IMG/VR virus record: IMGVR_UViG_3300020591_000121
Span: 1-54,367 of that record
Direction: 5' to 3' (one strand)
Length of the DNA: 54,367 nt
From: a virus
Taxonomy: Duplodnaviria; Caudoviricetes
In this document: positions 14,812-46,323 of the stretch, in pieces
Layout of the letters: every line of letters starts with the position of its first letter
How positions within the stretch are numbered: the stretch's first letter is position 1
Program-made: the position numbers and the translations under genes
The notes under the pieces: model-generated
What the model was told of the DNA's origin: nothing
The model's database searches: none
What the model saw: the letters and a program-made list of their open reading frames with translations, nothing else

Positions 14812-15603
14812 CTATGGGGCGGAGAACCGGTAGTTGATGCCGACGCGCACGGACTGCAGCGTCATCTCGCTATCGAAGCTGTCGGACTGGTAGCGATAGA
14901 CACCCGATCCCGGGCTCGTTTCATCGGCCGGCGCGCCGCTCAATGCGGTGCCGACGAACTGATGGTTCTGCCGTCCGAGATCGACGTAGAGATATTCGCC
15001 CTTGAGGCTCCACCCGCCGCCCAACGCCCACTCGGCGCCGGCGCCGGCCGACCAACCGAAATGGCTCTCGGTCGCTTCGCCCGTGGCCCATGGGGTCACC
15101 GGGCAGCCGACACATGCGACGCTGTTCTCCGATGTCGAGCGCGCCCATGCCGGCCCTGCTGTTCCGTAGATCAGGAGAGGGCCAGCAACGAAGCCGAGCC
15201 GCCCGCGCAAGGTGGCGAGCGAGTGAATGTCGCTGGTGATGTTCCAGGTGGTGAAACCGTCGGCAGTGGTGAAAGCGCCGCTGGCGTCTCCATCGATGTG
15301 GGCGATGTCCGCTTCGATCCCGAGGACGATGGCGCCGACCTGATGGCTGTATCCGATCTGGACACCGCCGAGCCAACCGTCCGCATCGCTCAGATCGCGA
15401 TCGACCGAGCCAAAGACGTCGACGGCGGTGATGTTGGGGAATGCTGCATCGTTGTAGCCGAGGGCGCCGCTCGTCGAACTCGAGGCCCATCCACCATGCA
15501 GGCCGATGTAGAGGCCAGACCAATCGGCAGGGGCATCCTGAGCGGCGGCTGGCAAAGTGAGTGCCATTGCCGCGACGAAAACCGATGACGCCATCTTGCC
15601 CAT
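14812..15603 (-). CDS. Omp25/RopB-type outer-membrane beta-barrel protein
   Basis: Signal peptide; DWSGLYIGLHGGW, LRGRLG, GWSAGAGAEW, EYLYVDLG, VRVGINYRF. Confidence 0.9.
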   Translation of the reverse strand: MGKMASSVFVAAMALTLPAAAQDAPADWSGLYIGLHGGWASSSTSGALGYNDAAFPNITAVDVFGSVDRDLSDADGWLGGVQIGYSHQVGAIVLGIEADIAHIDGDASGAFTTADGFTTWNITSDIHSLATLRGRLGFVAGPLLIYGTAGPAWARSTSENSVACVGCPVTPWATGEATESHFGWSAGAGAEWALGGGWSLKGEYLYVDLGRQNHQFVGTALSGAPADETSPGSGVYRYQSDSFDSEMTLQSVRVGINYRFSAP

Positions 15604-15784: not shown

Positions 15785-16423
15785 TTACCGGCGCCGAGGC
15801 TGGGTGTGCTCGCTGACGACGCCCTCGATTGCATCCTGACCAACGGTATACGTCGGCCATGGCGCATTTAACGGGCGCAGTTCGTAGAGCGGGTCCACGC
15901 CCGATCGCAATACATTGAGCTGACGGATTACCGGTAAATCTTCGCTCGGCACTACCGCAAGCACCATGTCCCCTGGTTCCGGTCGAATATCCGGATCGAT
16001 GATGAGGCTGTCCCCGGGCAGGTATTTTGGTTCGTTGGCGCGGTCGTGCACCAGCAATGAAAAGCTCTCCTCCGAGCACGGAAAATGAGACCTGACCCTT
16101 TCAACAAACATGCTCGTTATTGCACGGTTTTTGACTAACTCAATATTATATCTCGGCACGATCCGACCCCCGATTTCCCCGGTTTCAGTGATCGTACTGT
16201 TCTCGTTGTGTTCTGACAATTCGCCCGAGAGCAGCATGTGGATGTCGACGTCAAAGATCGATGCCAATTGGAACGCGCGCTTGTGATTTAGATCGACGCC
16301 CTTTTCCCAATTAGAGACCGCCTGAACGCTTACACCCGTGCGCTCAGCCACGACGCTCTGAGACCAGTCACGGTCCTTCCGAAGCGTCCTGATCAGCTTT
16401 CCAACACGCTTCCAGTCGACCAC
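15785..16423 (-). CDS. CI-like repressor (XRE HTH plus degenerate S24 domain)
   Basis: WSQSVVAERTGVSVQAVSNWE HTH; S24-like C-terminal domain; divergent from cro. Confidence 0.9.
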   Translation of the reverse strand: MVDWKRVGKLIRTLRKDRDWSQSVVAERTGVSVQAVSNWEKGVDLNHKRAFQLASIFDVDIHMLLSGELSEHNENSTITETGEIGGRIVPRYNIELVKNRAITSMFVERVRSHFPCSEESFSLLVHDRANEPKYLPGDSLIIDPDIRPEPGDMVLAVVPSEDLPVIRQLNVLRSGVDPLYELRPLNAPWPTYTVGQDAIEGVVSEHTQPRRR

Positions 16424-18037: not shown

Positions 18038-18340
18038 ATGCTCACGCACCAGCAGCGCGAAGTGATGCTGTTCGTTGAAGCCCATCAGGCGCGCACGGGC
18101 GGGGTCTCGCCGTCGCTTGCAGAGATCGCAGAGCATTTGCATCAGCGCAGCCGGTCGAATGTCGAGCGTCTGCTGGTGGGCTTGGAGCAGCGCGGGTTCA
18201 TTCGCCGGCTGCCCCGCGCTGCGCGGGCCATTGAGGTGTTGAGGCCAGTGAGCAGGTTCGCGTTTCACCGCTTTGATGCGGAGACGAAGCAGTTGCGTCC
18301 GTTTGCGTCCCCAAAAACGAAGGAAGCCTCGGAGGGCTAA
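18038..18340 (+). CDS. LexA DNA-binding-domain-only protein
   Basis: MLT..Q...FV......G.SPS..EI...L...S.S.V.RL...LE.RGFIRRLP..ARAIEV resembles the alphaproteobacterial LexA N-domain; no peptidase domain. Confidence 0.8.
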   Translation: MLTHQQREVMLFVEAHQARTGGVSPSLAEIAEHLHQRSRSNVERLLVGLEQRGFIRRLPRAARAIEVLRPVSRFAFHRFDAETKQLRPFASPKTKEASEG

Positions 18341-24060: not shown

Positions 24061-24555
24061 ATGCGCACCATCATCATCCTTGCCGCTCTCGCGGTGCTGT
24101 TTCCAACCGTCAGCCATGCCGAAGACTGGTCGCTGAGCACCTGGCAGCAGGGCCCGCGCTCGCCGTCTGCCTACGGGCACGCCAACAGAGCCAAGCCGAA
24201 GTGGCGCGCAACCGTACACCGCAGGAAACACCGGGAAGCACAGCCGCAAGAGAAGCAAGAGGTTCGGCTCTACCGGGCAGAGGATAAACCGCTTCCCGAG
24301 GGCGTAACATGCCAGCCCCAGGTGAGAGGGCTGGGAACCCAGTGGGTGGGGGAGCAGGGCGCACTCGATGCCGCCAAGAAAGATTGGATGGAAAGAGTGC
24401 GCTATGACCTGGGGGAATCCTACCTCGACATGGCGAATGCCCGCGATTTCGTCTCCCGTTGCGGGCGCGTGTCCATCGGTGAGGCGTTGGGGCAGGTGAT
24501 GTATCGCTGCGAGATCAAAGCACAGCCTTGCAAGGGCGTGTTCGCGGCGAAGTAG
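24061..24555 (+). CDS. Exported hypothetical protein
   Basis: AGGAGG RBS; signal peptide ending SHA; four Cys. Confidence 0.7.
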   Translation: MRTIIILAALAVLFPTVSHAEDWSLSTWQQGPRSPSAYGHANRAKPKWRATVHRRKHREAQPQEKQEVRLYRAEDKPLPEGVTCQPQVRGLGTQWVGEQGALDAAKKDWMERVRYDLGESYLDMANARDFVSRCGRVSIGEALGQVMYRCEIKAQPCKGVFAAK

Positions 24556-24576
24556 GACACCTAACGGGGTAGCAGG

Positions 24577-24609
24577 AAAAAGCCCCGGCAGCCGTGAGGC
24601 CACCGGGGC
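24577..24609 (-). terminator. Intrinsic terminator for the antisense cassette
   Basis: GCCCCGG/CCGGGGC stem with an A5 tract on + (U5 on -). Confidence 0.6.
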
Positions 24610-24634
24610 AGATGAAACATGCAGAACTTGCAGG

Positions 24635-25699
24635 TTACGCGGTCGCGAGCGCTTTGCATCGGCCTTGCTGGGTTCGGGCAGGGACCAGGCCCGACCGTTC
24701 CCACTCGCGGATCCACTCCGACATCGTCGATTTGGCGACGCCGTACCGTTCGCGCAGCTCGTCCTGGGAGCCGAACCGTTCGCCGAGGGCAAGGCGCGTC
24801 ACCAGATCGGCGGCGGCCTCGTCCTTCGTGTAGCCGCCACGGCCAGGGCGGTTCGGACGTTTAGGCGAACCGTTCGGCTGGCGAACCGTCTCTCCACCCC
24901 CGTTATCCGAACCGTTCGGCTGCGGGGCCGGCGAGGCGAACCGTTCGCGAAGCTCCGTCAGTTCGGCATCCGAAACCGAATTCAGTTCGGATGTCGGCTT
25001 CAGTTCGGCTTTCGCTTGCCGCTTCGGGCTGAACGCGAACCCGAACGAGACGATGGTGCCGAACTCGAGGAACAGGGTGGTGAAGAATGGGGCCAGCAGA
25101 ATGGCCAGCGCCCGAACCTGATCCTTGTCGTAACCGAGCGCCGCCGCGACATTGGCGAACTGTTCGGCCTCGGCTGAGACCGGCTTGGCCGGTTCGAGAA
25201 CCTGCAGCCGGGCTTCGAGGCCCTTCAGCGAGTTCTCATAGAAGGCGGCTGTCGCCTTCTTCGCCTTGCACTTCGGCCCGTCACCGCCGGCACACTCAGT
25301 ATCGCGGGCTTCGCGCTTGGCCCTGACGGCTTCGCGCTCGGCGGCGATCTGCGCTTCCAGATCGAGACGCTGGGCCACGAGCTGGTCGTGCTCGACGCCG
25401 GAGACGAGGGTCTTCTCTGCCTGGCGGCCGACACTGGAATAAACAACAAGCCCGGTGCCGGCGAGGAAGAGGGCCGTAAAGCCGAGGACCGACAACCAGT
25501 GGCGTTGACGGCGGGCCATATCGGCAAGGTGGCCGACCATCAGCGTGCCGGAGACGGTGACGAGGGTGAGCCAGTGCTTGAGCGTGATTTCCGCCCCGTG
25601 CATGAGGACGTCCTCGAAGAGGATCGCCAGCGTGCCTGAGGCGAGAACGACGCCCGCCGCGATTGCAAGGCCGCGGCCGGCCGTGTTAGAGTTCGTCAT
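24635..25699 (-). CDS. Membrane-anchored DNA-binding protein: 3 TM, coiled coil with Cys pair, TM, linker, HTH
   Basis: Four hydrophobic helices; ECAGGDGPKC hairpin; C-terminal SQDELRERYGVAKSTMSEWIREW HTH; AGGAAGGA RBS. Confidence 0.85.
   Translation of the reverse strand: MTNSNTAGRGLAIAAGVVLASGTLAILFEDVLMHGAEITLKHWLTLVTVSGTLMVGHLADMARRQRHWLSVLGFTALFLAGTGLVVYSSVGRQAEKTLVSGVEHDQLVAQRLDLEAQIAAEREAVRAKREARDTECAGGDGPKCKAKKATAAFYENSLKGLEARLQVLEPAKPVSAEAEQFANVAAALGYDKDQVRALAILLAPFFTTLFLEFGTIVSFGFAFSPKRQAKAELKPTSELNSVSDAELTELRERFASPAPQPNGSDNGGGETVRQPNGSPKRPNRPGRGGYTKDEAAADLVTRLALGERFGSQDELRERYGVAKSTMSEWIREWERSGLVPARTQQGRCKALATA
24742..25166. repeat. Intragenic CGAAC-N-GTTCG palindrome cluster B
   Basis: CGAACCGTTCG at 24772, 24866, 24908 and 24937; CGAACTGTTCG at 25156; one-mismatch copy at 24742; many half sites. 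Confidence 0.9.
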
Positions 25700-25780
25700 A
25701 GCAATGTTCCTTCCTAGGGTTCGTTGCGGTTTCAGAGCCCGGAGCGGTTGCCGCCTCTCCGGGCTTTTGCGTTTCTGATG

Positions 25781-25847
25781 GGCCTCATCAGCGAGGGCTT
25801 GACCCTCGGACCATCGCCGCCCCGTGTGAGGCGGCGAGGTTTCGGCC
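25781..25847 (-). ncRNA. Type II hammerhead ribozyme
   Basis: GGCC-GAAA-CC[UCGCCGC..GCGGCGA]UG-GUC^-CGAGGG(UCAAG)CCCUCG-CUGAUGA-GGCC: full core and three stems; predicted cut between 25809 and 25808. Confidence 0.88.
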
Positions 25848-25848
25848 T

Positions 25849-25974
25849 TTAGTTCGGGCGCTTCCGCTTCAGTTCTTCACGGATCGCGCTGACAACCATC
25901 CAGGTGATGCCGATGGCGGTGGTGACGAGGAGTACAATCCCGAAGATGTTGCCGGCCAGTTCTGCGTTAGACAT
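25849..25974 (-). CDS. 41-aa single-TM peptide (not in ORF track)
   Basis: MSNAELAGNIFGIVLLVTTAIGITWMVVSAIREELKRKRPN; GGAGA RBS; basic C-tail. Confidence 0.7.
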   Translation of the reverse strand: MSNAELAGNIFGIVLLVTTAIGITWMVVSAIREELKRKRPN

Positions 25975-26015
25975 TTGCTTTCTCCATGTGTTTCCAGCAC
26001 TTGGCTGATGGAGTT

Positions 26016-26119
26016 AATATGGCATATGCGTATATACGCGGCAATACTCGACGCAACTTATCCCCTGTAACAATCTTCAAATGTTCGTGAATTGACGTGT
26101 TGGCCCGTGTATATACGTT
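26016..26119. promoter_or_regulatory. Divergent promoters, each containing a GTATATAC palindrome
   Basis: Minus TTGCCG-N17-CATATT with GCGTATATACGC (26028-26039) in the spacer; plus TTGACG (26092) with GTATATAC (26109-26116). Confidence 0.6.
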
Positions 26120-26126
26120 GGAGTTC

Positions 26127-26279
26127 ATGGAAAAGCGCAAGGCGATCTCGCTGAAACTACCGCCAGAGCTGCTCGACAAGCTCGACGACTACCGCAAGCG
26201 CCAGCCGCACGAGCCCACGCGAACGCAGGTGATCGAGGATGCGATCCGGGCTATCGTCGAGAAGGGGAAGCGCAAATGA
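26127..26279 (+). CDS. Ribbon-helix-helix (CopG/Arc-like) regulator
   Basis: KAISLKLPPELLDKLD...TRTQVIEDAIRAIV. Confidence 0.8.
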   Translation: MEKRKAISLKLPPELLDKLDDYRKRQPHEPTRTQVIEDAIRAIVEKGKRK

Positions 26280-26755
26280 GATGGCTGGTCGCGCTCGCTG
26301 TGTTGATCGGCGCCATCGGTCTGATCGCCACCACCGACCCTCATCGGCCGTCGTCGAGGCCCACCCCGTCAGTGGACGAGAACGCCAAACTCGATGCGGA
26401 AATAGCGCACGCCCTCAAGACGACTGGCGTATATGTGCCGAAGAACGCACGGAAGGCGCCGCCACCCTCTGAAGTGGATCGTGTCAAGATCACCGATTTC
26501 ACTTGGGGCAAAACGGGCTTCGGCAGTGTGATGGAGGCGAGTTTCACCGTGCGCAATTCGTTGCCCTATGCGGTCAAAGACATTGCGGTGAAGTGCAGTC
26601 TGCACGGCGAGAGCGGCACCGAAATTGGTAGGGCGGCCAGGACCATTTACAGGCGCTTCCCACCCGGCGCTACGCGCGTAAAGGACTTCAGCATGGGGTT
26701 CATCAATGATCAGGCCCGGGGCGCGTGGTGCGAGGTTGTTGGGGTACAGAAGTGA
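26276..26755 (+). CDS. Membrane-anchored/exported protein with Ig-like beta domain
   Basis: N-terminal hydrophobic anchor; FTVRN...VKDI.V.C...G.SGT.IG pattern; ATGA-coupled to the RHH gene. Confidence 0.7.
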   Translation: MRWLVALAVLIGAIGLIATTDPHRPSSRPTPSVDENAKLDAEIAHALKTTGVYVPKNARKAPPPSEVDRVKITDFTWGKTGFGSVMEASFTVRNSLPYAVKDIAVKCSLHGESGTEIGRAARTIYRRFPPGATRVKDFSMGFINDQARGAWCEVVGVQK

Positions 26756-35117: not shown

Positions 35118-36077
35118 ATGTTGAACACGAACCTCTATGACGCGCAGGCGGCGTTGAGCTTCCTGCTTTCCCAGACCTCGCACATCGAGAGCCAGGTCTG
35201 GGCGAAGAAGTATCCGGACCTGACCTATGCCGAGGACGTGCCGATCGACAATTCGGCCTCGCCGTGGATCAAGTCGGTTACGTACTTCTCGAGCGATAAG
35301 GCCGGCAAGGCAGCGCTGATGCACGGCCGCGGTACCGACTTCCCGATGGTCGATATCGATCGCCAGAAGTTCGAGACCGAAGTCGTGATGGCCGGCATCG
35401 GCTACGACTATTCTCTCGAAGAGCTGGCGCAGGCGCTGATGGTGACGCCCCGCGTCAACCTGACGGCCGACAAGGCCTCGGCGGCGCGCCGCGCCTATGA
35501 GGAGTTCTGCGACAGCGTCGCCTACACGGGCGGCGGCGTGAACGACTGGACGGGGCTGCTCAACTACGCCGGCATCACGCCGACGGACGTTGCCGATGGC
35601 GCCGGCGCGGCCGATACGACTTGGGAAACCAAGACCGCCGACGAGATTCTCAAGGACATCAACGAGACGCTCACCGGCATCTGGACCGCCTCGAACACCA
35701 TCGAGCTGGCGGACACCATCCTACTGCCGCTCACGTCGTATGCGCACATCTCGCAGAAGCGCCTCGACAGCACGATGACCATCACCGTCCTGGAGTACGT
35801 CCAGCGCGCCAACGTCTACACGATGCAGACCGGCAAGCCGCTCCGCATCCGTGCCCGCCGTGAACTGGAAACGGCAGGCGTCGGTGCTCCGAACAGCAAG
35901 CGCATGATCGCCTACAAGCGCGATCCGGAGGTTCTGAAGATGCACATCCCGATGCCGTTCCGGTTCCTGCCGGCATTCCAGGCCTCTCCGATGGTGTTCC
36001 AGGTGCCGGGCATCTTCCGGTTGGGTGGCCTCGACATCCGTCGCCCGGGCGCGGTCCGCTATCGGGATAAGATCTAA
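35118..36077 (+). CDS. Major capsid protein (DUF2184-type)
   Basis: Position; GYDYSLEEL, GLLN, MHIPMP, GG..IRRP..V.Y.D. Confidence 0.88.
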   Translation: MLNTNLYDAQAALSFLLSQTSHIESQVWAKKYPDLTYAEDVPIDNSASPWIKSVTYFSSDKAGKAALMHGRGTDFPMVDIDRQKFETEVVMAGIGYDYSLEELAQALMVTPRVNLTADKASAARRAYEEFCDSVAYTGGGVNDWTGLLNYAGITPTDVADGAGAADTTWETKTADEILKDINETLTGIWTASNTIELADTILLPLTSYAHISQKRLDSTMTITVLEYVQRANVYTMQTGKPLRIRARRELETAGVGAPNSKRMIAYKRDPEVLKMHIPMPFRFLPAFQASPMVFQVPGIFRLGGLDIRRPGAVRYRDKI

Positions 36078-43803: not shown

Positions 43804-46323
43804 ATGGGATTTATCGCCGCCCTTCTGGTCCCGGTTATCGGGACGATCGGCGCTGCAATCGTCGAGATCGGCATTGCCGTCGGTCTCGGGTTCGCCGCCC
43901 GGAAGCTTGCACCGAAGCCGAAGTCGAGCGGCGCCGCCACGGACCGGGGCCGCGTTCTCCAGCTTGCGATCGACACCAATGCCGCGAGGCAGGTCATCTT
44001 CGGGCGCAGCGCAACCGCGGGCAGCCTCGTCTACTGGCAGACCACCGGCACGGACAACGCGGTGCTGCAGATGGTGGTGGCCCTGGCCGATCACGAGTGC
44101 ACCGGCCTTGCCGGCCTCTGGATCGACGGCAAAGAGCGGGCCTGGAATTCCGGCACGGGTGTTGTCGACGGCTTCGGCGGCAAGCTCGTGGTGCGCTTTC
44201 ACAATGGCGCCTCCGATCAAGCCGTTGATACGGCGGTCAAGGCGGCCTCTGAGGGCCGCTGGACCGATGACGAGCGCGGCGCCCACGTCTGCTATGCAGT
44301 AGTTGAGGCGACCTACGATCCGGAGATTTTCTCATCCGGCAACATCCCGCAGATCGTCTACGTGATCGACGGCGCGAAGCTCTACGACCCGCGATTTGAC
44401 AGCACGGCGGGCGGCGAGGGCAACCAGCGCTGGAATGACCCCGCGACCTGGGCGTTCTCGAAGAACTGCGCGGTGGTGACCTATAACGTCCTGCGCGGCT
44501 TCTCCGCCGGCGGCCGTGCGCTGCTCGGGCTCAATGCCCCTGCCGATGCCATCCGCATGTCGGACTTCGAGGCTGCCGCGAACGTCTGCGACGAAACCGT
44601 AGGGCTGGCGGCCGGTGGGACGGAGCCGCGCTACACCTGCGGGATGGTGGTCACCCTCGATGGCCAGCCGAACCGCGATGCTTTGGAAGCACTCGCCGCG
44701 GCAATGGCCGGAGACATCATCTGCTCGGCCGGCATCTACCGCATCATGGCGGGCGTCGCACGGTCATCCGTGGCGACGATCTCCGATGCCGACCTGATCG
44801 TCACCGAACCGTTCACGGTGGAGCCGAGGCTGGGCCGGGGCGAACTGACGAACGCCGTCACCGGTTCGTTCTCCGACCCCGAGCGTTCCTACAATGCGGT
44901 CCCCCTTCCGCCGCGCACGTCGAGCGCCGATGAGATCATCGACGGCGGCATCCGGCTGACGCTGCCCATGGACCTCGTGGCGGTCACCTCGCGCACGCAG
45001 GGCCAGCGGGTGATGGAGATCGCCCGCAAGCGCGCGCGTCGCCAGCTTCGCGTCCGGTGCACCTTGAGGGGGCGGTGGTTCGGCCTGGAGCCGGGCGACT
45101 GGATCACCTTCAATTCGACCCGGCGCGGGTTCGTCGGCAAAGTCTTCGAGATCGACCACATCAAGCGCAACCCGGACCTCACCTCCGTGGTCTCGCTCCG
45201 GGAAATGGACGATGGCGTAGATGACTGGTCGGCGCTGACGGACGAGCTTGCCGACGATACCGAAAGCGACCTTGCCGGAGGCGGCCCGACCCTCAACGCA
45301 GTAACGGGATTGGCCGTCGCACCGGTCGTCATCGCTGGCAACGGCGGGGCGCAGATGCCCGGCATCCGTGCGACATGGACCGCCATCACCGATCCCACGG
45401 TCATTGCGGTGCGGTTCGAGTTCCGCAAGGTGGGCGACACGACGGCGCTCGAGCGGAGATCGGAGACGCCCGGCGCAGGACAATACACATGGGTTGATGG
45501 CGTGCAGGGTGGCATTGCCTACGAGATCCGCGCTCTGCCCGTCACGGCCCCGGAACGGGGCGTTGAATGGACGTCCTGGGTGGCGTTCTCGGGCGCGGCC
45601 GTCACAGACCCCTTGAAGGTCGACGCGGCCGTGGATGCAGAAGTCGGCCCCGGCAGTATCGGCTTCGAAGAGCTGGACGCCCAAACCCGCTTCGAGCTCT
45701 CGCTTGCGAGCGCGAAAGCGGAGATCCAGGGGTCCGTTGCAGCGCAGCTCGCCGAGGCTTTCGAGTGGGCACAGAAAACTGGCGAGGCAGCACTGGCATC
45801 GCTGGCAAACGGGCACGAGAACGGCGCGCAGCTGCTCACCGAGCGGGTGGAGCGCGTCAATGGGCAGAATGCGCTCGCGCAGCAGATCACCACGGCGGTC
45901 ACGCGCATAGGCGACAACGAGACGGCGATATCGGAGGTCATCGAGAGCGTCGACGGCCTCAGGGGCGCTTGGGGCGTTGCGATCAACATCAATGGCCAAG
46001 TTGTCGGCCTCGTCCGGCTCGATGGCGCGGTGGACGAGAGCCAGTTCACGGTCGTGGCCGACAAGTTCGTCATTGCTCACCCCGACATCACGGGCGGGTT
46101 GCCGGTTCCGGTGTTCACCCTCAGCGAGATCAGCGGCGAAACCAAGGTGCATATCGCGGGAGAGTTGATCGCGGATGCCATTCGCGCGGGAGAGGTTAGC
46201 GTGAACGAGCTTTCCGCCATCTCGGCGGACCTCGGGACGATCACCGCGGGCCTCCTGCGCTCGTCGGACAACCTCTTCCGCATCGACCTCGACAACAAAG
46301 AGATCGTGATCGAGACCGCCTGA
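43804..46323 (+). CDS. Tail tip host-specificity protein (J-like)
   Basis: G.KLYDPR, F.AAAN.CDE, LEPGD, C-terminal F.V.ADKF. Confidence 0.85.
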   Translation: MGFIAALLVPVIGTIGAAIVEIGIAVGLGFAARKLAPKPKSSGAATDRGRVLQLAIDTNAARQVIFGRSATAGSLVYWQTTGTDNAVLQMVVALADHECTGLAGLWIDGKERAWNSGTGVVDGFGGKLVVRFHNGASDQAVDTAVKAASEGRWTDDERGAHVCYAVVEATYDPEIFSSGNIPQIVYVIDGAKLYDPRFDSTAGGEGNQRWNDPATWAFSKNCAVVTYNVLRGFSAGGRALLGLNAPADAIRMSDFEAAANVCDETVGLAAGGTEPRYTCGMVVTLDGQPNRDALEALAAAMAGDIICSAGIYRIMAGVARSSVATISDADLIVTEPFTVEPRLGRGELTNAVTGSFSDPERSYNAVPLPPRTSSADEIIDGGIRLTLPMDLVAVTSRTQGQRVMEIARKRARRQLRVRCTLRGRWFGLEPGDWITFNSTRRGFVGKVFEIDHIKRNPDLTSVVSLREMDDGVDDWSALTDELADDTESDLAGGGPTLNAVTGLAVAPVVIAGNGGAQMPGIRATWTAITDPTVIAVRFEFRKVGDTTALERRSETPGAGQYTWVDGVQGGIAYEIRALPVTAPERGVEWTSWVAFSGAAVTDPLKVDAAVDAEVGPGSIGFEELDAQTRFELSLASAKAEIQGSVAAQLAEAFEWAQKTGEAALASLANGHENGAQLLTERVERVNGQNALAQQITTAVTRIGDNETAISEVIESVDGLRGAWGVAININGQVVGLVRLDGAVDESQFTVVADKFVIAHPDITGGLPVPVFTLSEISGETKVHIAGELIADAIRAGEVSVNELSAISADLGTITAGLLRSSDNLFRIDLDNKEIVIETA

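What the first reader, a model, noticed from the sequence alone, without database searches (positions are those of the whole stretch)
25775..25851. Type II hammerhead ribozyme splitting a two-gene antisense operon
Seen (minus strand): GGCC GAAA CC UCGCCGC-loop-GCGGCGA UG GUC^ CGAGGG UCAAG CCCUCG CUGAUGA GGCC. All conserved core nucleotides, a GUC cleavage triplet and stems I-III are present, with stem II open (type II). It starts 1 nt after the stop of the 41-aa TM peptide, and the cut (25809/25808) lies about 110 nt upstream of the membrane-HTH gene. Established: hammerheads occur in bacterial prophages, mostly with unknown function. Inference: self-cleavage uncouples the stability or translation of the two cistrons. 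The downstream CAUCAG (25780-25775) can pair with CUGAUG of the core to form a competing 6-bp hairpin, which suggests a co-transcriptional switch or a protective 5' structure after cleavage.
Basis: partly seen in the sequence, partly recalled or inferred. Interest (0 to 1): 0.85.

Follow-up and report, generated by a model that had tools for sequence, protein, structure and literature searches.

The report
Hammerhead ribozyme between two prophage genes
A genuine self-cutting RNA motif (a type II hammerhead ribozyme) sits between a tiny membrane-peptide gene and a larger membrane-protein gene of a soil prophage; this kind of element has been known in phages since 2011, so it is a clean but ordinary example, with one conserved tail that is still unexplained.

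Summary
On the minus strand, 25847-25781 has every conserved hammerhead core base, a GUC cut site (25809/25808), hairpin-capped stems I and III and an open 4-bp stem II.

Rfam does not call it: Hammerhead_II scores 18.6 bits against a cut-off of 37. A covariance model built only from 65 hammerheads of 42 other phage loci scores it 73.7 bits, E about 1e-16; the next best place scores 15.4 bits.

All four related loci found through the downstream protein keep the ribozyme. Stem I shows four compensatory pair changes in L004. Across 147 distinct phage hammerheads, 95.2% of pair cells are paired and 18 of 20 pairs change on both sides.

It belongs to a short-loop-I class without the usual pseudoknot, which Rfam's cut-off misses.

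Cutting long phage transcripts into gene-length mRNAs was proposed in 2011 (PMC3088659) and remains unproven here. The scan has reported such phage hammerheads on other DNA before.

The CAUCAG(AAAC) tail is conserved in at least five hammerhead lineages with unrelated stems, and it tips the predicted fold away from the active one. Its role is open.

Verdict: a new member of a known kind, of modest interest.

The parts
25849..25974 (-). First cistron: 41-aa ORF with one hydrophobic helix and a basic tail (P0002). Its stop codon TAA is at 25851-25849.
   Evidence: There is no family match above a cut-off. In related loci a different small ORF occupies this place.
25781..25847 (-). Type II hammerhead ribozyme motif. 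Stem II is 25847-25844 with 25784-25781. GAAA is 25843-25840. The stem III hairpin is 25840-25810. C17 is 25809 and the cut is 25809/25808. The stem I hairpin is 25808-25792. CUGAUGA is 25791-25785.
   Evidence: Sequence. Rfam Hammerhead_II is the best family but scores 18.6 bits against a cut-off of 37. The independent model R2 gives 73.7 bits, E 1.4e-16. The hammerhead fold is the MFE without the tail.
25771..25780 (-). Conserved 3' tail CAUCAGAAAC. CAUCAG can pair with CUGAUG of the core, giving 6 bp with loop AGGCC.
   Evidence: with the tail the alternative fold is -42.5 and the hammerhead fold -40.7 kcal/mol. The tail is kept in lineages with unrelated stems. It is enriched only behind hammerhead cores.
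25736..25765 (-). Conserved hairpin in the 5' leader of the 354-aa gene, with no U-run after it.
   Evidence: Of 12 predicted pairs, 3 are kept through changes on both sides among 5 loci. In L004 the hairpin stays with the 354-aa gene, not with the ribozyme.
24635..25699 (-). Second cistron: 354-aa ORF (P0001) with hydrophobic segments, a central charged stretch and a C-terminal helix-turn-helix-like end. A Shine-Dalgarno-like AGGAAGGA lies at about 25715-25708.
   Evidence: The only family match is a weak DUF4407 hit below the cut-off. Look-alike Atlas clusters are phage hypothetical proteins; the cluster whose members mostly carry a winged-helix family (DUF7343, 71%) scores 0.89, which is a lead only.
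24582..24609 (-). Terminator-like hairpin (12 pairs) followed by a T-run. It marks the end of the two-gene unit.
26127..26279 (+). Divergently oriented ribbon-helix-helix (CopG-like) gene across the intergenic region from the two-gene unit. This is context only.
   Evidence: RHH_1, E 5.8e-4, just under the cut-off; phrog_876, transcriptional repressor, E 2.7e-6.

Best explanation
Window 25847-25781 (minus strand) encodes a real type II hammerhead self-cleaving ribozyme. It belongs to a class with a 6-bp stem I, a 5-nt loop I and no loop I/tail pseudoknot. It lies inside a bicistronic minus-strand transcript of a provirus, starting one base after the stop codon of a 41-aa membrane-peptide gene and 109 nt before the start of a 354-aa membrane protein gene.

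The most likely mechanism runs as follows. The folded ribozyme cuts itself after C25809. The upstream message then ends in the 13-bp stem III hairpin with a 2',3'-cyclic phosphate. The downstream message starts with a 5'-OH at the foot of the stem I hairpin. Once stem II (4 bp) has come apart, the freed CUGAUG pairs with the CAUCAG tail. The new 5' end then carries two stacked hairpins, followed by a third conserved hairpin and the ribosome-binding site. The two cistrons thereby become separate molecules with their own stability and translation.

Shown: the motif, its conservation, its covariation and its position. Inferred: cleavage in the cell, the refolding of the tail, and any effect on expression.

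My odds are 0.95 that it is a true conserved hammerhead, 0.8 that it cleaves in vivo, and 0.5 that its selected role is separate control of the two cistrons.
For: The core and all three stems are present. Without the tail, the minimum-energy fold equals the hammerhead secondary structure.

Model R2 was built from 65 hammerheads of 42 other loci, leaving out the window and its four relatives. It scores the site 73.7 bits, E 1.4e-16; the next best place in the window scores 15.4 bits.

All 3 of 3 loci found through the downstream protein (95, 85 and 75% identity) carry the ribozyme, as does a fourth, more distant locus, L050.

In the 13-sequence alignment A2, stem I is paired in 100% of cells with 5 of 6 pairs changed on both sides, and stem II pair 4 switches G-C/A-U. 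In 147 distinct sequences, 95.2% of cells are paired, 18 of 20 pairs change on both sides, 0 of 500 shuffles reach the observed values, and slid controls give 32-40% paired.

In the pattern-selected set, 79 of 106 distinct hits have at least 6 consecutive stem I pairs, against 7 of 2120 shuffles.

The position is typical of the class. The stop codon of an upstream open frame ends within -3 to +2 nt of stem II in 89 of 147 hammerheads, and the next start codon lies a median 28 nt downstream.

The predicted fold of the 3' product has the stem I hairpin, the CUGAUG/CAUCAG hairpin and the conserved hairpin in a row, with the ribosome-binding site left open.

From the literature (passages read): hammerheads flank genes in prophages, cleave in vivo when cloned in E. 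coli, and may process long phage transcripts (PMC3088659). Three type II hammerheads near phage-like genes cleave in Desulfovibrio vulgaris (PMC8782182).
Against: No cleavage data exist for this RNA.

The Rfam family cut-off is not reached, at 18.6 against 37 bits. The site was not listed in a 451-nt slice at E up to 10, nor by the whole-record search with RF02276.

The usual loop I/tail pseudoknot, which Perreault et al. found critical for fast cleavage in their constructs, is absent, so the rate at cellular Mg2+ is unknown.

With the tail present, the predicted minimum-energy fold is the inactive one, by 1.8 kcal/mol.

Two contigs from RNA libraries of two studies run across the cut site without a break: X15 covers 25769-25919 and X17 covers 25717-25926. 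This is uncut RNA or DNA carry-over.

No sigma-70-like promoter passed the scan in 24300-26400, so the transcript itself is inferred.

Alignment A3 was fitted to a model, which leans towards the structure. Its members were gathered with a pattern that fixes the core, 3 pairs of stem II and 2 pairs of stem III.
Confidence: 0.7

Rival explanations
1. Self-masked, conditional ribozyme. The CAUCAG tail pairs with CUGAUG as soon as it is transcribed and keeps most transcripts uncut. Cleavage happens only in a short co-transcriptional window, or when something frees the core: a factor bound to CAUCAGAAAC, a ribosome, temperature or Mg2+. The tail then sets the ratio of bicistronic to split mRNA.
For: With the tail, the inactive fold is the predicted minimum (-42.5 against -40.7 kcal/mol).

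Among 16 hammerheads with [AG]UCAG in the tail, the hammerhead fold is the minimum in 16 of 16 without the tail but in 1 of 16 with it. For other short-loop hammerheads the with-tail figure is 39 of 55.

The tail is kept in at least five lineages with unrelated stems I and III. It occurs in 13 of 44 short-loop loci against 1 of 41 long-loop loci, and it is not enriched away from hammerheads: 7 found against 7.7 expected.

In L014 the tail base opposite core position 7 is G where position 7 is U or C, so the pairing is kept.

RNA-library contigs bridge the cut site.

Perreault et al. raise regulated cleavage for phage hammerheads (PMC3088659, discussion passage).
Against: The energy gap is small, 0.0-3.5 kcal/mol, and the energy model ignores the tertiary contacts of the active fold.

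L004, an orthologous locus, has lost the complementarity but keeps the ribozyme.

The core cannot vary, so true covariation cannot be counted.

Enrichment of at least 5 pairs to the core over shuffled tails is only 23 against 9.8 of 147, and the cases are related to each other.

Pairing does not explain why GAAAC after CAUCAG is also kept.
Confidence: 0.25
2. Module boundary with no role in this operon's regulation. The ribozyme plus its tail is a conserved intergenic unit that travels with, or marks the edge of, exchangeable small genes in phage mosaics, and it is kept by descent or by recombination. Cleavage may happen but is not what is selected in this two-gene unit.
For: The first cistron differs completely among relatives: a 41-aa peptide here, a 58-59-aa hydrophobic peptide in L002 and L003, and a 66-aa acidic protein in L004. 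The ribozyme right after it stays.

The same ribozyme-plus-tail unit sits between unrelated genes in L008 and L056.

Near-identical copies repeat within one phage: five in L006.
Against: Stems keep pairing through many compensatory changes while the core stays invariant. That implies selection on the folded, active RNA and not only on a DNA sequence.

The stop-codon-to-ribozyme and ribozyme-to-start spacings are tight across 147 cases.
Confidence: 0.15
3. Chance look-alike or dead relic: a sequence that fits the hammerhead consensus but does not fold or cut.
For: The Rfam cut-off is not reached. The pseudoknot is absent. Uncut molecules or DNA are seen in RNA libraries.
Against: The independent model gives E 1.4e-16 with all pairs standard. 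The motif is conserved with compensatory changes in all related loci. The whole short-loop class is missed by Rfam's cut-off while sharing core and stems.
Confidence: 0.03

Closest known systems
Type II hammerhead ribozymes of bacteria and prophages (Perreault et al. 2011, PMC3088659, passages read; Rfam RF02276)
   Same: It has the same invariant core, the same permutation (stems I and III capped, stem II open and short), and the same setting between phage genes. The 2011 paper proposed processing of long phage transcripts into gene-length mRNAs.
   Different: It has no loop I/3'-tail pseudoknot, which the paper reports for a majority of type II examples. Loop I is a 5-nt U...G loop on a 6-bp stem. 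Stem III is long, with a bulged U. It scores 18.6 bits against Rfam's 37-bit cut-off. It carries a conserved CAUCAGAAAC tail that can mask the core.
Clustered hammerheads flanking genes in prophages, for example the triple arrangement in an Agrobacterium tumefaciens prophage (PMC3088659, passage read)
   Same: The ribozyme sits at gene junctions of a prophage, and the flanked genes are not constant from phage to phage.
   Different: There is a single copy in this provirus: the next best hits score 19.1 (R1) and 15.4 (R2) bits and lack the core. It lies in a short minus-strand two-gene unit rather than in a long operon. Relatives such as L050 have three in a row.
Three type II hammerheads of Desulfovibrio vulgaris shown to cleave in vivo by cyPhyRNA-seq (PMC8782182, abstract and passages read)
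   Same: They are type II hammerheads near hypothetical and phage-like genes. That method would settle the present case.
   Different: The organism is different, and I have not compared the sequences. No in vivo data exist for this one.
Earlier report of this scan, e1-6014330: 'self-masking' type II hammerhead in a cyanophage operon
   Same: That hammerhead lies between two small membrane-protein genes, escapes the Rfam cut-off, and has a short tail able to fold back on the catalytic centre.
   Different: It is on other DNA and is an unchecked AI note. I did not see its sequence, so I cannot say whether the tail is the same motif.

Membership tests
Hammerhead ribozyme (class) | Conserved core C3 U4 G5 A6 N7 G8 A9, G12 A13 A14, A15.1-U16.1 and H17, as listed in the methods passage of PMC3088659. 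| tested here: met
   CUGAUGA is at 25791-25785, GAA at 25843-25841, A25840 pairs with U25810, and C25809 is H17. The site aligns to the core columns of Rfam RF02276 and of R2.
Hammerhead ribozyme (class) | Three helices around the core, with standard pairs next to the core (10.1-11.1, 1.1-2.1, 15.1-16.1) and no multiple mispairs in short stems. | tested here: met
   The pairs are G25784-C25844, C25808-G25792 and A25840-U25810. Stem I has 6 pairs, stem II 4 pairs, and stem III 13 pairs with one bulge. No non-standard pair is marked.
Hammerhead ribozyme (class) | Helices supported by compensatory changes in relatives. | tested here: met
   In A2, 10 of 20 pairs change on both sides and 91.5% of cells are paired against 72.0% in shuffles. 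In A3, 18 of 20 pairs change on both sides and 95.2% are paired against 62.7%. The caveat is that A3 was fitted to the model.
Hammerhead ribozyme (class) | Mg2+-dependent self-cleavage 3' of H17, giving 2',3'-cyclic phosphate and 5'-OH ends. | not testable with these tools
   Only contigs of RNA libraries were available; they bridge the site and cannot show ends.
Type II permutation | [quoted passage not shown] | tested here: met
   This is the order of elements on the strand. It fits the type II models only; the clan's other families lost the overlap.
Rfam RF02276 Hammerhead_II | Score at or above the curated gathering cut-off (37 bits). | tested here: not met
   The site scores 18.6 bits, E 0.068 on a 96-nt slice. 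It is not reported at gathering or in a 451-nt slice. In the same test, none of the 12 of 15 loci whose hammerheads are almost all of the short-loop kind got a hit, while L048, L065 and L020 got 11. This is a property of the model, not a defining feature of the ribozyme class.
Pseudoknot-stabilised type II hammerheads | [quoted passage not shown] | tested here: not met
   Loop UCAAG has no complement of 3 nt or more in the first 16 tail bases. It is therefore not filed under this sub-type. According to PMC3088659, a majority of type II examples, not all, have the pseudoknot.

The most novel reading that the evidence does not exclude
The conserved tail C(C)AUCAGAAAC defines a sub-class of phage type II hammerheads that lack the pseudoknot and are built to be bistable. 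The tail masks the catalytic strand, so that cleavage is gated, either co-transcriptionally or by a factor that binds the tail. After the cut, the tail locks the product into a double-hairpin 5' end. In this provirus that would set the ratio of a small membrane peptide to its 354-aa membrane partner from a single promoter.
Probability: 0.25. Interest if true: 0.55.

Novelty: new member of a known kind. Interest (0 to 1): 0.3.

Why it matters
Type II hammerheads between phage genes have been known since 2011, but what they do for the phage is still open (PMC6765202, passage read). This copy adds three things.

First, it is a clean two-gene test case: one promoter region, one ribozyme and one terminator. 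An active and a dead core could be compared directly here.

Second, it shows that a large class is missed by the Rfam cut-off. That class has a 6-bp stem I, a 5-nt U...G loop and an A before a 4-bp stem II, and it makes up 70 of 147 hammerheads in my biased sample. Phage annotation based on Rfam therefore undercounts ribozymes.

Third, it carries a conserved tail motif that competes with the catalytic strand and could be a natural on/off or product-locking device. If the tail proves to be a switch, it would be a simple natural design for regulated ribozymes.

Tried and rejected
Rfam scans: there was nothing at gathering and nothing in a 451-nt slice at E up to 10. Only a 96-nt slice gave Hammerhead_II, at 18.6 bits. 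The whole-record search with RF02276 listed another place (35550-35621, 11.4 bits) and not this one.

A blastn of 24600-26300 against the phage records found no match.

The sigma-70 promoter scan of 24300-26400 found 0 sites. By eye, a TTGCCG-17-CATATT pair lies upstream of the peptide gene, but it fails the scan's rule, so I do not claim a promoter.

Protein families for the 354-aa protein: there was none above any cut-off in Pfam, PHROGs or NCBIfam. The Atlas gave only unnamed phage clusters, plus one 0.89 lead to a winged-helix family. PADLOC was not searched.

Idea: the tail extends stem II by pairing with the 5' flank. It works only for L002 and not for the window or the L008 group (reading). 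Rejected.

Idea: the GAAAC of the tail forms a second, overlapping hammerhead. The 8-9 nt between CUGAUGA and that GAAAC cannot make a stem II (reading). Rejected.

Idea: CAUCAG...GAAAC in the 5' leader of the peptide gene (26010) shows a general leader motif. CATCAG occurs 45 times in the window, and ATCAGAAAC occurs outside hammerheads 7 times against 7.7 expected. Rejected as chance.

Idea: this is the phage's immunity region. The CI-like repressor (HTH_3 plus a weak S24 match) is at 15785-16423, so the cassette is a separate unit.

The tail pattern scan of viral contigs also returned coding-sequence matches without any hammerhead (the L106 group and L107). I left these out of all tail counts.

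The genome-contig scan with the tail pattern gave 1 hit, an uncultured Hyphomicrobium MAG carrying the same locus as L050. I did not pursue host range further.

Literature searches for the tail were (hammerhead + CAUCAG, 7 papers, none on phage hammerheads by title or abstract). I saw listings only.

Full report
WHAT IS THERE

The window is a 54,367-base provirus record. It carries a large terminase subunit and a portal gene on the + strand, a CI-like repressor at 15785-16423, and a tRNA gene at its right end.

On the minus strand, between + strand early and late genes, lies a short unit. In order it holds:
- a 41-aa ORF with one hydrophobic helix (25974-25849);
- one spacer base;
- the flagged element (25847-25781);
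- a tail, CAUCAGAAAC (25780-25771);
- a hairpin (25765-25736);
- a Shine-Dalgarno-like AGGAAGGA;
- a 354-aa ORF (25699-24635);
- a 12-bp hairpin with a T-run (24609-24582).

A ribbon-helix-helix gene faces the other way at 26127.

THE OBSERVATION

- GGCC / GAAA;
- a 13-bp stem III with one bulged U;
- GUC, with the cut at 25809/25808;
- stem I, CGAGGG-UCAAG-CCCUCG;
- CUGAUGA;
- GGCC.

The 70-nt element without its tail folds, as its minimum-energy structure, into exactly the hammerhead three-way junction (-39.9 kcal/mol). An 86-nt slice (25855-25770) that includes the tail folds much better than shuffles (z -4.6, 0 of 200 shuffles as good), but into the alternative fold described below.

IS IT MORE THAN CHANCE, AND IS IT A HAMMERHEAD?

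Rfam alone would say no. Nothing was reported at the gathering cut-off or in a 451-nt slice. Only 18.6 bits against a 37-bit cut-off appeared when a 96-nt slice was given, although Hammerhead_II was the best family there.

Comparative evidence says yes.
- The downstream protein found three related viral contigs (95, 85 and 75% identity), and all three carry the element. A fourth, more distant locus, L050, does too.
- In L004, stem I reads UCCCGG/CCGGGA instead of CGAGGG/CCCUCG: four pairs changed on both sides with the core untouched.
- In L003, stem I gained a 22-nt insert that itself pairs, and stem III is two pairs longer.
- A pattern holding only core bases and a few adjoining pairs found 100 stretches in the viral collection. 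Of the 106 distinct sequences, 79 have at least 6 consecutive stem I pairs, against 7 of 2120 shuffles.
- A model built from 13 sequences (R1) found 156 matches in 966 kb of these loci.
- On the 147 distinct aligned sequences, 95.2% of pair cells are standard pairs (shuffles 62.7%, slid controls 32-40%), and 18 of 20 pairs show changes on both sides. That alignment is fitted to the model, and its members were gathered with a fixed core, so the figures lean towards the structure.
- The MAFFT alignment A2 of 13 sequences gives the same picture: 91.5% paired, and stem I has 5 of 6 pairs changed on both sides.

As an independent test, I rebuilt a model from 65 hammerheads of 42 other loci, leaving out the window and its four relatives. 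It scores the window's site 73.7 bits, E about 1.4e-16, with no non-standard pair. The next best place scores 15.4 bits and lacks the core. This provirus therefore has one hammerhead.

WHICH KIND

The 147 hammerheads fall into two classes.

In 77, loop I is 7 nt or more, and in many of those I read it is complementary to the bases right after stem II. This is the pseudoknot that Perreault et al. described for a majority of type II examples and showed to be needed for fast cleavage in their constructs (PMC3088659, passages read).

In 70, including the window's, the features are:
- stem I has 6 pairs;
- loop I has 5 nt (53 of 70);
- loop I starts with U (63 of 70) and often ends with G (47 of 70);
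- an A precedes stem II (67 of 70).

Rfam's cut-off found 11 hammerheads in three pseudoknot-type loci. It found none in the other 12 of the 15 loci given, whose hammerheads are almost all of the short-loop kind. The low Rfam score is thus a property of the model.

What holds stems I and II together in this class is unknown. From memory, a U in loop I and an A at the end of stem II make a Hoogsteen pair in other natural hammerheads. That is a lead I could not test.

WHERE SUCH RIBOZYMES SIT

In 131 of 147 cases an open frame of at least 40 codons ends within 40 nt upstream. In 89 of 147 its stop codon ends between 3 nt inside and 2 nt before stem II. The next start codon with a Shine-Dalgarno-like word lies a median 28 nt after stem II.

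The window's copy fits on the upstream side, with a gap of 1 nt. Its downstream leader is longer, at 81 nt, because of the extra hairpin.

A ribosome ending the peptide gene would cover the first bases of the ribozyme, so translation of the first cistron and folding of the ribozyme must interfere. This is an inference.

THE TAIL

CAUCAG can pair with CUGAUG of the core. With the tail included, the predicted minimum is an inactive set of three hairpins (-42.5 kcal/mol), against -40.7 for the hammerhead fold.

The tail is not peculiar to this phage. C(C)AUCAGAAAC follows stem II in several groups whose stems I and III share no sequence and whose flanking genes differ:
- the window group;
- the L008/L024/L056/L078 group;
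- L105/L124;
- L114;
- L009, as CAUCAGUA.

[AG]UCAG occurs in 15 of 70 short-loop hammerheads (13 of 44 loci) against 1 of 77 long-loop ones. ATCAG is the second most widespread 5-mer of 1024 in short-loop tails. ATCAGAAAC is found 12 times behind a hammerhead core and 7 times elsewhere, against 7.7 expected.

Among the 16 tail-bearing hammerheads, the hammerhead fold is the predicted minimum in 16 of 16 without the tail and in 1 of 16 with it (146 of 147 could be evaluated). Other short-loop hammerheads keep it in 39 of 55 with their tails.

In L014, three copies have CGUCAG or CGUCGG tails with core position 7 as U or C, which keeps the pairing.

Several points weigh against a strong claim:
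- the excess over shuffled tails is modest, 23 against 9.8 of 147 with at least 5 pairs;
- the cases are related to each other;
- the energy gaps are 0.0-3.5 kcal/mol;
- the orthologue L004 has lost the complementarity;
- pairing does not explain the conserved GAAAC.

HOW IT MOST LIKELY WORKS

The ribozyme cuts the bicistronic RNA after C25809. The peptide message keeps the long stem III hairpin at its 3' end. The 354-aa message starts with a 5'-OH under the stem I hairpin.

Once the four pairs of stem II part, CUGAUG and CAUCAG can close a second hairpin directly stacked on the first, followed by the third conserved hairpin and an open ribosome-binding site. That would make the cut irreversible and shield the new 5' end.

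This is the long-standing idea of transcript processing into separately stable or separately translated mRNAs (PMC3088659 and PMC6765202, passages read). Nothing here proves it.

The rival reading is that the tail keeps the ribozyme off until something frees it. It fits the same data, and I give it about one chance in four.

A third reading treats the ribozyme as a conserved module edge beside exchangeable small genes. The first cistron is a different gene in the window, in L002/L003 and in L004, but the compensatory changes argue for selection on the folded RNA.

EXPRESSION

Of 21 runs listed, five are on record as RNA. I laid four of those five. In two of the four, from two studies, identical contigs cover 25769-25919 and 25717-25926. 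Both bridge the cut site.

This may be uncut transcript or DNA carried into the library. Contigs cannot show ends, so it neither proves transcription nor disproves cleavage.

HOST

The only hit for the tail pattern in 185,579 species genomes is an uncultured Hyphomicrobium MAG. It carries the L050 version of the locus, with three hammerheads in a row. The window's own host is not known.

NOVELTY

This is a new member of a known kind. The scan has already reported many phage hammerheads on other DNA, including one with a self-masking tail (unchecked notes).

The points worth keeping are the short-loop class that Rfam misses, the stop-codon abutment, and the conserved tail.

I found no paper on such a tail in searches. 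For these I saw listings only, apart from the three papers whose passages I read. The supplements of the 2011 paper, which I could not open, may cover it.

Noticed in passing
window 25736-25765 (-): A second conserved hairpin lies in the leader of the 354-aa gene, with no U-run after it. It is kept with compensatory changes in L002, L003, L004 and L050. In L004 it stays with the gene although an extra ORF separates it from the ribozyme. Its role is unknown.
   Followed up: partly
window 25849-25974 (-); L002 2671-2847; L003 2653-2829; L004 2444-2640: The first cistron before the ribozyme is a different small gene in each lineage: a 41-aa TM peptide, a 58-59-aa hydrophobic peptide, and a 66-aa acidic protein. 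The leader with its ribosome-binding site (window and L004) and the ribozyme are kept. It looks like an exchangeable slot.
   Followed up: partly
loci L002-L006, L008, L009, L014, L031, L050, L073: The Rfam Hammerhead_II gathering cut-off reports none of the short-loop type II hammerheads in these loci, while it reports 11 pseudoknot-type ones in L048, L065 and L020. Phage annotation by Rfam undercounts this class.
   Followed up: yes
147 hammerheads of alignment A3: The stop codon of the upstream gene ends within -3 to +2 nt of stem II in 89 of 147. The conserved A before stem II (67 of 70 short-loop cases) is often the last A of UAA/UGA or the A of UAG.
   Followed up: partly
L006 10784-13102; L050 3140-3772; L031 1206-1740; L103; L037; L046; L070: Several phages carry arrays of three to six or more hammerheads at successive gene junctions. 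In L031 a small TM-peptide gene is flanked by two of them.
   Followed up: no
window 43807-43876 (-): This is the next best match to both hammerhead models (19.1 and 15.4 bits). It has hairpins but no CUGAUGA or GAAA core and lies inside a long + strand ORF, so it is not a ribozyme.
   Followed up: yes
window 15785-16423 (-), 18038-18340 (+), 14812-15603 (-): There is a CI-like repressor (HTH_3 plus a weak Peptidase_S24 match below the cut-off), a 100-aa protein that is only a LexA DNA-binding domain, and an outer-membrane beta-barrel gene.
   Followed up: partly
window 24660-24895, 25932-26086, 26153-26300: Contigs from four soil RNA libraries also cover the 3' end of the 354-aa gene, the divergent intergenic region and the RHH gene. 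The cassette may be expressed in lysogens, but DNA carry-over is not excluded.
   Followed up: no
L106, L109, L111, L115, L118, L120 and L107: The tail pattern also matched a conserved coding sequence of a family of related phages with no hammerhead upstream. This shows that the pattern alone is not diagnostic.
   Followed up: yes
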